Assembly (NCBI RefSeq): GCF_003334815.1
Contig: NZ_QOWO01000026.1
Length of the DNA: 62,123 bases
Source of the DNA: Escherichia coli
GTDB lineage: Bacteria; Pseudomonadota; Gammaproteobacteria; Enterobacterales; Enterobacteriaceae
Strand: one strand, 5' to 3'
Below are positions 44,495 to 47,273 of this stretch, piece after piece. Each line of letters starts with the position of its first letter. Positions within the stretch are counted from its first letter, which is position 1. The notes below the pieces were generated by a model that did not search any database, had not been told where the DNA came from, and saw only the letters and a list, made by a program, of their open reading frames with translations. The position numbers and the translations under genes were made by a program.

Positions 44495-46120
44495 ATGAAT
44501 ATTTTCACAGAGGCTGCAAAACTCGAAGAGCAAAATTGTCCGTTTGCTATGGCGCAAATTGTTGATAGCCGAGGCTCGACTCCCCGCCATTCTGCACAAA
44601 TGTTAGTGCGCGCCGATGGTTCTATCGTCGGTACAATTGGTGGCGGAATGGTTGAGCGGAAGGTGATTGAAGAGTCGCTTCAGGCATTGCAGGAACGTAA
44701 GCCGCGATTATTCCATGGACGTATGGCTCGTAACGGTGCGGATGCTGTCGGGTCAGATTGTGGAGGTGCAATGTCAGTATTTATCAGCGCCCATGGTATG
44801 CGTCCACGTCTGGTGTTGATTGGCGCGGGGCATGTCAACCGGGCGATAGCCCAGAGTGCGGCGCTATTAGGATTTGATATTGCCGTTGCTGATATTTATC
44901 GCGAAAGCCTCAATCCTGAACTATTCCCACCATCAACCACGCTTCTCCATGCTGAGTCGTTTGGTGCGGCAGTGGAAGCACTGGATATTCGCCCTGATAA
45001 TTTTGTCCTGATTGCCACGAATAATCAGGATCGTGAAGCCCTCGACAAACTCATTGAACAGCCCATTGCATGGTTGGGGTTGCTGGCAAGTCGTCGCAAG
45101 GTTCAGCTTTTCCTGCGTCAATTGCGTGAGAAAGGCGTGGCTGAAGAACATATTGCCCGTTTACATGCGCCCGTTGGTTACAACATAGGTGCGGAAACGC
45201 CGCAGGAGATCGCCATCAGCGTGCTGGCAGAAATATTACAGGTGAAAAATAACGCGCCGGGTGGGCTGATGATGAAACCTTCTCATCCTTCCGGACACCA
45301 GCTGGTGGTGATTCGCGGTGCGGGAGATATCGCCAGTGGTGTGGCGCTACGTCTGTATCATGCGGGTTTTAAAGTGATCATGCTGGAAGTGGAAAAACCG
45401 ACAGTGATTCGTTGTACCGTGGCGTTTGCCCAGGCCGTGTTCGATGGCGAAATGACGGTCGAAGGCGTCACTGCTCGCCTGGCAACCAGCTCTGCGGAAG
45501 CGATGAAACTTACCGAACGCGGATTCATTCCTGTGATGGTAGATCCCGCCTGTTCATTGCTTGATGAACTGAAACCGCTTTGCGTGGTGGACGCTATTCT
45601 GGCGAAACAGAATTTGGGAACGCGGGCAGATATGGCACCAGTAACAATCGCGCTTGGGCCGGGCTTTACTGCTGGGAAGGATTGTCATGCGGTAATTGAA
45701 ACAAATCGCGGGCACTGGCTCGGTCAGGTGATTTACTCTGGTTGTGCGCAGGAGAATACCGGTGTTCCTGGCAATATTATGGGGCATACCACCCGACGGG
45801 TGATCCGTGCTCCTGCTGCAGGCATTATGCGATCCAACGTGAAATTAGGCGATCTGGTGAAAGAGGGCGATGTGATTGCCTGGATTGGTGAGCATGAAAT
45901 TAAAGCACCGTTGACGGGGATGGTGCGTGGCTTGTTGAACGACGGCCTGGCAGTGGTTGGTGGTTTTAAAATTGGTGATATCGATCCTCGTGGTGAAACC
46001 GCTGATTTCACCAGCGTTTCTGATAAAGCCCGGGCGATTGGCGGCGGCGTACTTGAGGCGTTAATGATGTTGATGCATCAGGGCGTGAAAGCGACAAAAG
46101 AAGTGCTGGAAGTGGCTTAA
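44495..46120 (+). CDS. yqeB: XdhC/CoxI-family molybdenum hydroxylase accessory protein
   Basis: 541-aa ORF; Rossmann-like GAGHVNRAIA and GAGDIASGVA. Confidence 0.92.
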   Translation: MNIFTEAAKLEEQNCPFAMAQIVDSRGSTPRHSAQMLVRADGSIVGTIGGGMVERKVIEESLQALQERKPRLFHGRMARNGADAVGSDCGGAMSVFISAHGMRPRLVLIGAGHVNRAIAQSAALLGFDIAVADIYRESLNPELFPPSTTLLHAESFGAAVEALDIRPDNFVLIATNNQDREALDKLIEQPIAWLGLLASRRKVQLFLRQLREKGVAEEHIARLHAPVGYNIGAETPQEIAISVLAEILQVKNNAPGGLMMKPSHPSGHQLVVIRGAGDIASGVALRLYHAGFKVIMLEVEKPTVIRCTVAFAQAVFDGEMTVEGVTARLATSSAEAMKLTERGFIPVMVDPACSLLDELKPLCVVDAILAKQNLGTRADMAPVTIALGPGFTAGKDCHAVIETNRGHWLGQVIYSGCAQENTGVPGNIMGHTTRRVIRAPAAGIMRSNVKLGDLVKEGDVIAWIGEHEIKAPLTGMVRGLLNDGLAVVGGFKIGDIDPRGETADFTSVSDKARAIGGGVLEALMMLMHQGVKATKEVLEVA

Positions 46121-46127
46121 ATGAAAA

Positions 46128-46334
46128 TGGCCGGATGGTATTACCCACCCGGCCTGAGACTGATGACAAACGCCAAATTGCCTGATGCGCTACGCTTATC
46201 AGGCCTACAAGTGCATTGCAATCTATTGAATTTGCGATGTTTTGTAGGACGGATAAGGCGCTCGCGCCGCATCCGGCATCAACAAAGCGCACTTACTTGA
46301 CAATCTTTGGCCGGATGGTATTACCCACCCGGCC
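46128..46334. repeat. REP/BIME cluster bracketed by a 27-bp direct repeat
   Basis: tggccggatggtattacccacccggcc at 46128-46154 and again at 46308-46334; REP units gcctgatgcgctacgcttatcaggcctac and gtaggacggataaggcgctcgcgccgcatccggca in between. Confidence 0.75.
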
Positions 46335-46340
46335 TTTAAA

Positions 46341-47273
46341 TTACTGACAAATCACCGTTCCTGTTTTGCCTTCAATCCCTTCTTTCGCTTTGCTCAATAC
46401 GGTAATCAGTGCTTCACGACCTGCGCGAGAGCGAGCAAACGAGGCGGCAGCTTCCACTTTAGGCAGCATAGAACCTTTCGCAAAATGACCTTCTTCGATA
46501 AAGCGTTCAGCATCACTTAATGACAGGCGATCGAGCCACTGTTCATTCTCTTTACCGAAGTTAATGGCCACTTTTTCTACCGCAGTCAGAATGATCAGCA
46601 TATCGGCATCAATCATTTCTGCTAAACGGGCGCTGGCCCAGTCTTTATCGATAACCGCGCTGGCACCACGCAGATGGTTACCTTCACGAATAACAGGGAT
46701 ACCACCACCGCCAACGGTGATCACCACCTGACCTGCATCTACCAGAGCTTTAACCGTTTCTTTTTCAATGATATCAACCGGTTTTGGCGAGGCAACAACA
46801 CGGCGATAGCCGCGACCAGCATCTTCTTTCAGAGTGTAACCCTGTTTTGTCAGTTGCTCTGCTTCTTGCTCGGTAAAGAACGAACCGATCGGCTTGGTCG
46901 GGTTGAGGAATGCCGGATCGTTAGCGTCGACTTCGACCTGAGTAACCAGCGTTGCTACAGGTTTATTAATGCCCCGAGAAAGCAGTTCTTCTCTTAAAGC
47001 GTTTTGTAGATCGTAACCAATATAACCCTGGCTTAATGCAACACAGACAGACATCGGCAGCATTGGCGAGTGCGCTTCAGTTTTTGCGGCAGCTTCAAAG
47101 GCCTGGTTAATCATGCCCACCTGCGGCCCGTTACCATGAGTGACGATAACTTCATGTCCCTGGGCAATTAAATCAACAATTGCCTGAGAAGTAATTTTTA
47201 CCGCTTTCATTTGCCCGGCCAGGTCATCGCCCAGCGCATTCCCGCCCAGGGCGAGAACAATTTTCTTACTCAT
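46341..47273 (-). CDS. yqeA: Carbamate kinase-like protein
   Basis: 310-aa ORF MSKKIVLALGGNALG... amino acid kinase family. Confidence 0.93.
   Translation of the reverse strand: MSKKIVLALGGNALGDDLAGQMKAVKITSQAIVDLIAQGHEVIVTHGNGPQVGMINQAFEAAAKTEAHSPMLPMSVCVALSQGYIGYDLQNALREELLSRGINKPVATLVTQVEVDANDPAFLNPTKPIGSFFTEQEAEQLTKQGYTLKEDAGRGYRRVVASPKPVDIIEKETVKALVDAGQVVITVGGGGIPVIREGNHLRGASAVIDKDWASARLAEMIDADMLIILTAVEKVAINFGKENEQWLDRLSLSDAERFIEEGHFAKGSMLPKVEAAASFARSRAGREALITVLSKAKEGIEGKTGTVICQ

What the first reader, a model, noticed from the sequence alone, without database searches (positions are those of the whole stretch)
46128..46334. 27-bp direct repeats bracketing the REP cluster between yqeB and yqeA
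tggccggatggtattacccacccggcc occurs twice, 180 bp apart, flanking two REP units. This is the arrangement expected if a REP-containing unit was duplicated or inserted as a small mobile module.
Basis: seen in the sequence. Interest (0 to 1): 0.2.

Follow-up and report, generated by a model that had tools for sequence, protein, structure and literature searches.

The report
BIME-1 repeat inside duplicated terminator hairpin
The two 28-base repeats are two copies of the local terminator hairpin between yqeB and yqeA, with a known 152-base mobile-looking repeat (BIME-1) between them; the same hairpin-duplication signature flanks about half of the BIME-1 copies I examined, which bears on how these repeats spread.

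Summary
An exact 28-nt direct repeat lies at 46128-46155 and 46308-46335, where none is expected by chance. The repeat is not part of the REP/BIME consensus. It is the locus-specific GC-rich hairpin that scores as a two-way intrinsic terminator between the converging genes yqeB and yqeA (arcC). The 152 bp between the copies is a complete BIME-1 (RIP/RIB) element with A motif, Y REP, IHF-type linker, Z REP and B motif.

The site is polymorphic. Of 5167 E. coli complete genomes that carry the locus, 1648 have hairpin-BIME-hairpin. The rest are 180 bp shorter, and the sampled ones have a single hairpin.

The pattern is general. At uspB-pitA, mog-satP and aspC-gloC, and at 24 of 51 independent BIME-1 loci in Escherichia and Pseudocitrobacter, a different local hairpin of 16-31 nt is directly repeated flush against both element ends.

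E. whittamii carries an orthologous, partly decayed copy at the same site. The insertion is therefore old, and most empty E. coli alleles are probably precise deletions between the two hairpin copies.

The element is already known. I found no description of the hairpin-length target duplication in the papers I could read, but three key older papers were not available.

The parts
44495..46120 (+). yqeB coding sequence (3' end faces the element)
   Evidence: ORF list. RefSeq annotation of identical DNA in K-12: selenium-dependent molybdenum cofactor biosynthesis protein YqeB.
46128..46155 (.). Left copy of the 28-nt direct repeat, a hairpin (stem 46129-46154, loop TATTAC). Read on the - strand it is followed by ATTTTCATTT and looks like the terminator for yqeA.
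   Evidence: exact repeat. (terminator-like site on the - strand, 10 pairs). (dG -16.7 on the + strand RNA, -22.6 on the - strand RNA).
46156..46307 (+). Complete BIME-1 (RIP/RIB) element, 152 bp, with imperfect terminal inverted repeats (G-AGACTGATGAC ... GACAATCT-T)
   Evidence: Aligns end to end with BIME-1 copies at uspB-pitA, mog-satP, entD-fepA, aspC-gloC and yajD-tsx. Absent as a block, together with one hairpin copy, from the short alleles. Folds at -48.7 kcal/mol, z -3.1.
46156..46179 (+). A motif (left outer arm of BIME-1)
   Evidence: Conserved GAGACTGATGACAAACGC..AAAT block in alignment A2 and in 112 copies from the genome scan.
46180..46208 (+). Y-type REP (palindromic unit)
   Evidence: Exact match to GCCTGATGCGCTACGCTTATCAGGCCTAC; it is the only match in the window.
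46209..46243 (.). L linker with an IHF-type site (ATTCAATAGATTG on the - strand, 46219-46231). Its first 9 nt (AAGTGCATT) are a locus-specific signature.
   Evidence: L core TGCAATCTATTGAATTTGC has 1 mismatch to the family consensus. IHF-like pattern. Linker signature unique to this site among 76 copies. Rfam ES036 near-threshold match at 46201-46243.
46244..46277 (+). Z-type REP, inverted relative to the Y REP (GTAGGACGGATAAGGCGCTCGCGCCGCATCCGGC)
   Evidence: Sequence. Conserved block in alignment A2. Weak Rfam naRNA4 (REP-derived) match at 46247-46283.
46278..46307 (+). B motif (right outer arm of BIME-1)
   Evidence: Conserved ..AACAAAGCGCAC......ACAATCT block in alignment A2.
46308..46335 (.). 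Right copy of the 28-nt direct repeat, the same hairpin. On the + strand it is followed by TTAAATTA, so GGCC-TTTAAATT looks like the terminator for yqeB.
   Evidence: In the B2 allele with a perfect stem, the single hairpin scores as terminator-like on both strands.
46341..47273 (-). yqeA (arcC, carbamate kinase) coding sequence (3' end faces the element)
   Evidence: ORF list. RefSeq annotation.

Best explanation
The converging genes yqeB and yqeA originally shared one GC-rich hairpin with an A-run on one side and a T-run on the other, which is the form of a two-way intrinsic terminator. A 152-bp BIME-1 element (A motif, Y REP, IHF linker, Z REP, B motif) inserted there. The insertion duplicated the whole hairpin, giving A-run, hairpin, BIME-1, hairpin, T-run. 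Each gene therefore keeps a hairpin plus U-tract, now 180 nt further out, and both 3' untranslated regions contain the BIME-1.

Shown here:
- The element and its boundaries.
- The repeat is locus-specific, and empty alleles with one hairpin exist.
- The same architecture recurs at many independent BIME-1 loci.
- The duplicated segment is a fully paired hairpin that ends flush with the element.

Inferred:
- The target was cut at the two feet of the hairpin, once on each strand. The stagger therefore equals the hairpin length, and fill-in synthesis produced the duplication.
- The agent is unknown. The REP-associated tyrosine transposase (TnpA-REP/YafM) is the obvious candidate. However, its IS200/IS605 relatives make no target duplication, so this step is speculative.

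The insertion at this site is old, because E. whittamii carries an orthologous copy. Afterwards the two 28-nt copies served as substrates for repeated precise deletion of one 180-bp unit. This probably happened by replication slippage or unequal exchange, which produced the majority empty alleles of E. coli. In other lineages and loci the same unit was amplified in tandem.
For: - The repeat is exact and not a chance event.
- Short alleles are exactly 180 bp shorter and keep one hairpin. 1648 genomes have the filled form, out of 5167 with the locus.
- The 152-bp core aligns with other BIME-1 copies, but the flanks do not.
- Three further loci (uspB-pitA, mog-satP, aspC-gloC) are polymorphic in the same way. 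In each, the empty allele has one terminator-like hairpin and the filled allele has hairpin, BIME-1, hairpin.
- Survey of 51 independent loci in Escherichia and Pseudocitrobacter: 24 have left and right flank similarity above the 99th percentile of mismatched-locus controls. In these the repeat abuts the element within 0-3 nt.
- In those 24 loci the repeat is 16-31 nt (median 21) and is paired end to end. It is preceded by an A-run in 21 and followed by a T-run in 18. The junction rule is DR-G-AGACTGA...CAATCT-G-DR.
- The empty-site hairpin scores as terminator-like on both strands. In the window the left copy scores on the - strand.
- The E. whittamii site reads hairpin, A, Y, L, then GTAG fused to a second, diverged hairpin copy. 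It shares the unique linker signature. Its identity to the K-12 copy is 91%, the same as the flanking genes.
- Filled and empty states each occur with both variants of the adjacent SNP (TTTAAA and TTAAAA). Strain ET5 is empty on flanks 100% identical to K-12.
- Tandem arrays of hairpin plus BIME-1 units have periods of 169 and 182.
Against: - No insertion event was observed, so the cut positions and the enzyme are inferred only from the end product.
- TnpA-REP needs a C|T dinucleotide at its cleavage sites (PMC3333891). Some inferred target cuts lie in T|T or A|A runs.
- IS200/IS605-type transposition gives no direct repeats (PMC3333891, PMC2817692).
- About half of the surveyed loci lack a clear hairpin repeat. 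Some have only 6-7-nt abutting repeats and some have none. Either those repeats have decayed or the rule is not universal.
- The two K-12 copies are identical at 28 of 28 positions, and both carry the derived C that is absent from B2 strains and E. whittamii. An ancient duplication then requires homogenisation between the copies, or else the E. coli filled allele is younger than I infer.
- No extant E. coli BIME-1 is more than about 90% identical to this copy, so no source copy can be named.
- Terminator function is predicted from sequence and was not measured.
Confidence: 0.8

Rival explanations
1. Recent gain. The empty site is ancestral throughout E. coli, and the BIME-1 inserted, with its 28-bp duplication, only in the lineage leading to K-12-like strains. 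The E. whittamii copy would be an independent insertion at the same hairpin, or a transfer between species.
For: - The two hairpin copies in K-12 are identical at 28 of 28 positions, and both carry the derived C (CCCACCC). B2 strains and E. whittamii have T.
- Filled alleles are nearly uniform inside E. coli: 1630 of 1648 are at least 99% identical.
- Empty alleles occur in deep lineages such as ST131/B2 and O157:H7.
Against: - E. whittamii has the element at the same site, in the same orientation and with the same left junction. It has the same otherwise unique linker signature (8 of 9 hypervariable positions; none of 76 other copies has it). Its divergence equals that of the flanking genes, about 91%.
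- No possible source copy above about 90% identity exists in E. coli genomes.
- Filled and empty states both occur with both alleles of the adjacent SNP, and ET5 is empty on K-12-identical flanks. These point to repeated loss.
Confidence: 0.15
2. No staggered cut. The BIME-1 first inserted at one foot of the hairpin without any duplication, as an IS200/IS605-like element would. The second hairpin copy arose afterwards, either by a one-and-a-bit rolling-circle or primer-extension step of the kind proposed for BIME amplification, or by tandem duplication of the hairpin-BIME unit followed by loss of the extra BIME.
For: - Tandem arrays of hairpin plus BIME-1 exist, with periods of 169-182 and more than 5 copies. 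The unit can therefore be re-replicated.
- Ton-Hoang et al. propose such amplification models for TnpA-REP (PMC3333891).
- Y1 transposases are not known to make target duplications.
Against: - It needs two precise events to give the same hairpin-BIME-hairpin product at more than 24 independent loci.
- The predicted intermediate would have a hairpin on only one side with an intact element end. A few loci look like this (L047 and L050), but these are equally explained by decay.
- Several loci have short 6-7-nt abutting repeats without a hairpin, which fits a variable stagger better.
Confidence: 0.2
3. The 27-mer is simply part of a standard BIME, or a chance repeat, and has no bearing on mobility.
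For: The hairpin shares the outer stem GCCGGAT...ATCCGGC with Z-type REPs, so at first sight it could pass for REP material.
Against: - No match is expected by chance.
- Five other BIME-1 copies share the 152-bp core but not the 28-mer.
- Among all complete sequences recovered with the hairpin, from genomes and metagenomes, it sits only at yqeB-yqeA.
- Empty alleles retain exactly one copy.
Confidence: 0.01

Closest known systems
BIME-1 (also called RIP or RIB elements) of Escherichia coli: Y REP, L linker with IHF site, Z1 REP, flanked by A and B motifs (Gilson 1991; Bachellier 1994, 1997; Boccard and Prentki 1993; Oppenheim 1993, recalled from memory and as summarised in PMC3333891, PMC1187871 and PMC2817692)
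   Same: - Composition, order and orientation of the motifs, and a size of about 150 bp.
- Extragenic position at the 3' ends of transcription units.
- Single copy per locus.
- Presence or absence among strains. [quoted passage not shown] The Bachellier 1997 abstract, as I recall it, speaks of 'excisions of a whole BIME-1'.
   Different: Nothing differs in the element itself, which is a member of the family. What the accessible descriptions do not mention is the direct duplication of the local terminator hairpin flush against both ends.
REPINs mobilised by RAYTs (REP-associated tyrosine transposases, TnpA-REP/YafM), assumed to use an IS200/IS605-like single-strand mechanism (PMC3116915, PMC3337134, PMC3333891, PMC5581495)
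   Same: - Two inverted REPs form one long imperfect hairpin.
- The element is non-autonomous, has a very low duplication rate and is vertically persistent.
- The mechanism of spread is stated to be unknown.
   Different: IS200/IS605-type transposition makes no direct target repeats (PMC3333891). Here the element is bracketed by target repeats of 16-31 nt. No RAYT gene lies in the region studied, and no link to RAYT was tested.
Bacterial MITEs (for example Correia/NEMIS, ERIC/IRU, RUP): short non-autonomous elements with terminal inverted repeats and target site duplications
   Same: Terminal inverted repeats (AGACTGATGAC / GTCAACAATCT type), flanking direct repeats of target DNA, intergenic location, and presence/absence polymorphism.
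   Different: MITE duplications have a fixed short length set by a DDE transposase (2-9 bp). Here the length varies from 16 to 31 nt and equals the length of a hairpin in the target. [quoted passage not shown]
Deletion between short direct repeats that flank a palindrome (replication slippage in E. coli; established knowledge, not tested here)
   Same: Two 28-nt direct repeats are 152 bp apart around a quasi-palindrome. The loss removes exactly one repeat plus the intervening DNA. It has recurred on different haplotypes.
   Different: This explains the loss and the tandem gain of units, but not the origin of the repeats.

Membership tests
BIME-1 / RIP / RIB | One Y-type and one Z-type REP (palindromic unit) in inverted orientation | tested here: met
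   The Y REP matches the consensus exactly at 46180-46208. The Z REP at 46244-46277 aligns with the Z REPs of five other BIME-1 copies. I did not separate the Z1 and Z2 subtypes.
BIME-1 / RIP / RIB | Long L linker between the REPs carrying an IHF consensus site | tested here: met
   TGCAATCTATTGAATTTGC has 1 mismatch to the family core. ATTCAATAGATTG fits WWTCAANNNNTTR on the - strand. IHF binding itself cannot be tested with these tools.
BIME-1 / RIP / RIB | Conserved outer motifs (A and B) on either side of the REP pair; total length about 145-150 bp; single unit per locus | tested here: met
   End-to-end alignment of 152 bp with copies at uspB-pitA, mog-satP, entD-fepA and aspC-gloC, and with 67 full-length copies from the genome scan.
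BIME-1 / RIP / RIB | [quoted passage not shown] | tested here: met
   It lies between the stop codons of the converging genes yqeB and yqeA.
MITE (DDE-transposase-mobilised miniature element) | Target site duplication of fixed short length typical of one transposase family | tested here: not met
   The flanking repeats vary from 16 to 31 nt and track the hairpin length. A few loci have repeats of 6-7 nt.
MITE (DDE-transposase-mobilised miniature element) | Terminal inverted repeats matching those of a resident IS | not tested
   Imperfect terminal inverted repeats are present, but they were not compared with any IS ends.
IS200/IS605-type (Y1/HUH) single-strand transposition product, as assumed for REPIN/RAYT | Insertion without direct repeats of the target | tested here: not met
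   Direct repeats of target DNA flank this copy and 24 of 51 surveyed loci.
IS200/IS605-type (Y1/HUH) single-strand transposition product, as assumed for REPIN/RAYT | Cleavage by TnpA-REP at C|T next to REP hairpins; dependence on the RAYT gene | not testable with these tools
   The element's right end is ...AATC|TG, and many left junctions are ...CC|TG, which is compatible. Other inferred target cuts fall in A or T runs. No biochemical or genetic test was possible.
Two-way (bidirectional) intrinsic terminator | GC-rich hairpin flanked by an A-run upstream and a T-run downstream, between converging genes | tested here: met
   The empty allele of PA45B scores as terminator-like on both strands with the same 10-pair stem. 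The window's left copy scores on the - strand. Energies are -16.7, -22.6 and -21.4 kcal/mol. Termination in vivo cannot be tested here.

The most novel reading that the evidence does not exclude
BIME-1 elements, the E. coli counterpart of REPINs, integrate by a structure-directed event. This event cuts an intrinsic-terminator hairpin at its two feet, one cut per strand, and so duplicates the entire hairpin. The resulting target duplication has a variable length of 16-31 nt equal to the length of the hairpin. As far as I could check, such a signature has not been described for REP/BIME elements. It conflicts with the assumed IS200/IS605-like mechanism, which gives no duplication. It would also explain why BIME-1 sit at the 3' ends of genes and why insertion does not destroy termination on either side.
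Probability: 0.35. Interest if true: 0.7.

Novelty: already known. Interest (0 to 1): 0.5.

Why it matters
REP and BIME sequences have been known for about 40 years and make up a noticeable part of E. coli intergenic DNA. The papers I could read still say that the way they spread is unknown (PMC3333891, PMC3337134). A review states that they lack the hallmarks of transposable elements (PMC3184786).

If the hairpin-length duplication is a true footprint of insertion, it has several consequences:
- It gives the target, an intrinsic-terminator hairpin.
- It gives the geometry of the cuts, at the two feet of the stem.
- It gives a concrete in vitro test for the REP-associated transposase.
- It explains how insertion can leave the termination of both neighbouring genes intact.
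- It explains why these elements are so easily lost precisely, or amplified in tandem. This accounts for much of the small-scale length variation between E. coli strains.

For this locus alone the practical meaning is modest. K-12-type strains carry yqeB and yqeA 3' untranslated regions that are 180 nt longer than in most other E. coli and contain a BIME-1.

Tried and rejected
- Literature. Bachellier 1997 (PMC1207841), Boccard and Prentki 1993 (PMC413762) and Gilson 1991 (PMC333889) are not held, so I could not check whether the flanking repeats were already noted there. Seven full-text searches and reading of nine papers found no description.\n- A query made of the empty ET5 allele, meant to count K-12-haplotype empty sites, was uninformative because filled and empty alleles tie in rank.\n- A BIME-hairpin-BIME junction query, meant to find tandem expansion at this locus, only recovered ordinary filled alleles as two joined pieces. 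It did confirm the count of 1648.\n- Tandem Repeats Finder reports nothing in the window, as expected for 1.16 copies.\n- Rfam gives only a near-threshold ES036 match and a weak naRNA4 match, both REP/BIME-derived families.\n- The window holds no second BIME-1 for comparison.\n- Ideas considered and dropped: the hairpin is part of the mobile unit (it is locus-specific); the element inserted into a hairpin loop (that would split the arms, not give direct repeats); the element inserted between pre-existing tandem terminators (empty alleles have one hairpin); target-primed reverse transcription or RNA 3'-end-primed models (no evidence either way, too speculative).

Full report
**1. The observation**

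It has no further match with up to three mismatches, and none is expected in shuffled sequence. The identity extends one base further, giving 28 nt with a spacing of 180.

The repeats lie in the 220-bp gap between the stop codon of a + strand ORF (44495-46120) and that of a - strand ORF (46341-47273). RefSeq annotates these genes in identical K-12 DNA as yqeB and arcC (=yqeA).

**2. Anatomy**

Each repeat copy is itself a hairpin, GGCCGGATGG-TATTAC-CCACCCGGCC. The predicted energy is -16.7 kcal/mol for the + strand RNA, which has an A.C mismatch. It is -22.6 kcal/mol for the - strand RNA, where that position is a G.U pair.

Read on the - strand, the left copy is followed by ATTTTCATTT and is picked up by the terminator scan. 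On the + strand, the right copy is followed by TTTAAATT.

The 152 bp between the copies (46156-46307) contains, in order:
- a conserved outer arm (46156-46179);
- a Y-type REP that matches the consensus exactly (46180-46208);
- a linker with the family core TGCAATCTATTGAATTTGC (one mismatch) and an IHF-type site, ATTCAATAGATTG, on the - strand (46219-46231);
- an inverted Z-type REP (46244-46277);
- a second outer arm (46278-46307).

The two outer arms are imperfect inverted repeats of each other. The whole unit folds more stably than shuffled controls (-48.7 kcal/mol, z -3.1).

**3. What the 152 bp is**

Searching the 152 bp alone against 5426 complete E. coli genomes gives matches of at least 95% identity in 1648 genomes. 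Every other genome has only paralogous copies, at about 84-90% identity and covering the whole 150 bp.

I fetched five of these paralogs: uspB-pitA, mog-satP, entD-fepA, aspC-gloC and yajD-tsx. They align with the window over the 152-bp core, from GAGACTGATGAC to ACAATCT. Outside it the similarity stops.

This is the composition described for BIME-1, also called RIP or RIB: Y REP, long IHF linker, Z1 REP and outer A and B motifs. Those descriptions come from PMC3333891, PMC1187871 and PMC2817692, and the motif names from my memory of Gilson 1991 and Bachellier 1994. All the defining features I could test are met, so the element is a member of a known family.

**4. The repeat is target DNA, not BIME**

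The megablast of the whole region shows two size classes, 1101 bp and 921 bp, which differ by exactly 180 bp. Four short alleles were aligned: SCEC020026, ET5, O157:H7 MB41-1 and ST131-type PA45B. They read TAA-ATGAAAA-[one hairpin]-TT(T/A)AAATTA, with one copy of the 28-mer and no BIME-1.

In PA45B the stem is perfect (CCCATCCGGCC). The single hairpin is there called terminator-like on both strands.

A scan of public metagenomes for the hairpin gave 86 contigs. Of these, 75 had both flanking anchors, and all 75 were at this locus:

| State | Number | Variants |
|---|---|---|
| Empty | 56 | 22 T-hairpin with TTTAAA; 18 C-hairpin with TTTAAA; 15 C-hairpin with TTAAAA; 1 other |
| Filled | 19 | 15 K-12 type; 3 with a 1-nt deletion in the left copy; 1 with TTAAAA on the right |

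So the 28-mer is the local two-way terminator hairpin of the converging genes. The K-12 arrangement is hairpin, BIME-1, hairpin.

**5. The same architecture at other BIME-1 loci**

In alignment A2 I noticed that three of the five paralogs are also bracketed by direct repeats, each of a different hairpin. All three loci are polymorphic in E. coli, with size differences of 170-173 bp. In every case the empty allele has one terminator-like hairpin between an A-run and a T-run. The filled allele has that hairpin on both sides of the BIME-1.

| Locus | Hairpin in the empty allele |
|---|---|
| uspB-pitA | AAAAAAA-GCGGGCCAGTAAACTGACCCGCTCG-TTTTGG |
| mog-satP | AAAAAAA-TCCCCCCGAGCGGGGGGA |
| aspC-gloC | AGCCCGCTGAAAAGCGGGCT-TTTTT |

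I then scanned one genome per species (GTDB set) for the A-motif/Y-REP junction. This gave 112 copies, 67 of them full length. They came from E. albertii, E. whittamii, three E. coli-like genomes, two unnamed Escherichia species and three Pseudocitrobacter genomes.

After removing tandem-array members and orthologous duplicates, 51 loci remained. The local-alignment score between the 40 nt to the left and the 40 nt to the right had a median of 11. For mismatched pairs of loci the median was 6 and the 99th percentile was 12. Twenty-four loci exceed that percentile. In all 24 the repeat touches the element, ending at -1 to -3 on the left and starting at 0 to +3 on the right.

In these 24 loci:
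- The repeat is 16-31 nt long (median 21).
- It is base-paired from its first to its last nucleotide, with a mean of 0.4 and 0.7 unpaired nt at the two ends.
- It is preceded by at least 4 A in 8 nt in 21 loci and followed by at least 4 T in 8 nt in 18 loci.
- The junctions follow the rule [repeat]-G-AGACTGA ... CAATCT-G-[repeat].

Some of the remaining loci have diverged hairpin pairs. Some have short abutting repeats of 6-7 nt (ATAGCAT, GGGCTTT, CCATAC). Some have none.

**6. What this implies**

Locus-specific repeats flush against a conserved element at many independent sites are the signature of duplication of the target at insertion. Two features are unusual. The length varies, and it always equals the length of a hairpin. 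This means the two strands were opened at the two feet of the stem.

A simple reading is that a structure-specific activity cuts each strand on the same side of its hairpin. The palindromic target offers the same hairpin on both strands. The element is then joined, and the single-stranded hairpins are filled in. This step is inferred, not shown.

The REP-associated tyrosine transposase is the natural suspect, because it binds REP hairpins and cuts single strands beside them (PMC3333891). However, its relatives make no target repeats, and it requires C|T, which is not present at all inferred cuts. A rolling-circle style re-replication of the hairpin after a simple insertion is a viable rival.

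A consequence that does follow from the sequence is that the duplication leaves an intact hairpin plus U-tract for each gene. A simple insertion beside the hairpin would separate the hairpin from its T-run for one of the two genes. Survivorship may therefore also favour this architecture.

**7. Age and direction of change at yqeB-yqeA**

The genome scan hit the same site in E. whittamii. The full locus reads: hairpin (perfect stem), AG, A motif, Y REP, L linker, then GTAG fused directly to a second hairpin copy with a different loop (GGCCGGATGGTGTCGACATCCGGCC), then TTTAAATTA. The Z REP and B motif have been lost by a deletion at the shared octamer GGCCGGAT.

The first nine bases of the linker differ between paralogous copies. 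They are AAGTGCATT in K-12 and AGGTGCATT in E. whittamii, and none of the 76 other copies examined has this signature. Over the shared 100 nt the two copies are 91% identical. This is the same as the flanking genes between E. whittamii and E. coli (about 91%).

The simplest reading is one insertion before the two species split. The empty alleles that make up about two thirds of E. coli would then be precise deletions of one 180-bp unit between the two hairpin copies.

Supporting observations:
- ET5 is empty on flanks 100% identical to K-12 over 921 bp.
- DG343-1 (filled) and SCEC020026 (empty) encode the same YqeB protein.
- Filled and empty states both occur with TTTAAA and with TTAAAA immediately next to the hairpin.

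A difficulty remains. Both K-12 copies are identical and both carry a C that is T in B2 strains and in E. whittamii. Under the ancient-insertion reading, this needs homogenisation by unequal exchange or conversion.

Unequal exchange of this unit is real. Escherichia sp. MOD1-EC7003 has arrays of hairpin plus BIME-1 with periods of 182 (more than 5.2 copies) and 169 (5.1 copies). I keep recent gain as a rival at about 0.15.

**8. Comparison with what is known**

The element is a textbook BIME-1 in the K-12 genome. Its kind is known to be present or absent among strains (PMC1187871, citing Bachellier 1997). For the element itself the novelty rating is therefore 'already known'.

Within the accessible literature I could not find the hairpin-length direct duplication of the target. 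[quoted passage not shown] PMC3333891 and PMC2817692 stress that the related IS200/IS605 elements make no direct repeats, and PMC3333891 and PMC3337134 say the spreading mechanism is unknown. PMC5581495 describes an IS200-like mechanism as the working assumption.

The three papers most likely to have noticed the duplication are not held. I therefore put the chance that this is both real as an insertion footprint and undescribed at about one in three.

**9. Verdict**

At the level of this locus the finding is ordinary: a catalogued repeat element with a strain polymorphism. The general rule that emerged is robustly supported by sequence. BIME-1 sits between two direct copies of a local terminator hairpin, with empty sites showing one copy. 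This makes the old question of how REP/BIME elements move experimentally approachable. Interest 0.5.

Noticed in passing
L080 11475-12413 (continues in L081); L087 7438-8312; also L088, L090, L102 (Escherichia sp. MOD1-EC7003) and L103: Tandem arrays of the unit hairpin plus BIME-1. L080 has period 182 with at least 5.2 copies at 96% identity. L087 has period 169 with 5.1 copies. This is the same kind of unit as the 180-bp one delimited by the repeats in the window.
   Followed up: partly
L035-L050 and L074-L077 (Pseudocitrobacter faecalis, P. vendiensis and a Pseudocitrobacter MAG): Full-length BIME-1 elements with the Escherichia consensus, and the same hairpin duplications, occur in a second genus. 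BIME-1 is usually described as an E. coli/Shigella element.
   Followed up: partly
L105 4127-4283 (E. whittamii yqeB-yqeA): The Z REP and B motif were lost by a deletion between GGCCGGAT in the Z REP and the same octamer in the second hairpin copy. The yqe terminator hairpin shares its outer stem (GCCGGAT...ATCCGGC) with Z-type REPs, so it may itself be REP-like.
   Followed up: partly
window 46147 and 46327; L004 630-655: The hairpin has a T/C polymorphism. B2-type strains and E. whittamii have a perfect 10-pair stem (CCCATCC). Other E. coli have CCCACCC, which weakens the hairpin only in the yqeB reading direction (-16.7 against -21.4 kcal/mol).
   Followed up: partly
window 46201-46243 (-) and 46247-46283 (+): The Rfam family ES036 (CssrF sRNA) matches the BIME-1 linker at 36.3 bits, just under its gathering score of 37.6. 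naRNA4 matches the Z REP weakly. ES036 therefore matches sequence that is repeated in BIME-1 copies across the genome.
   Followed up: no
L072 (Bacillus coahuilensis m4-4, 184-bp contig NZ_ABFU01000103.1): A 184-bp contig in a Bacillus assembly carries an Escherichia-type BIME-1 end. Its flank is nearly the same as that of the E. coli E69 locus L054. This is most likely contamination of that assembly.
   Followed up: no
L036/L043, L050, L026/L056: Some BIME-1 copies without a duplicated hairpin have short direct repeats flush with the element (ATAGCAT, GGGCTTT, CCATAC). The duplication length may therefore range from about 6 to 31 nt.
   Followed up: partly
E. coli genome hits H241, H265, H266: The K-12-type filled allele, with flanks 100% identical over 921 bp, also occurs in large Shiga-toxin-type genomes (O145 RM9872, 95-3192, 2013C-4991). 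O157:H7 genomes are empty, which hints at recombination across phylogroups at this locus.
   Followed up: no
whole collection: About 259 of 5426 complete E. coli genomes have no yqeB-yqeA region at all. They show only REP-level matches to the query.
   Followed up: no
window 46008-46292 (-): A 94-aa ORF runs through the hairpin and most of the BIME-1. It is an artefact of the repeat sequence and not a likely gene.
   Followed up: no
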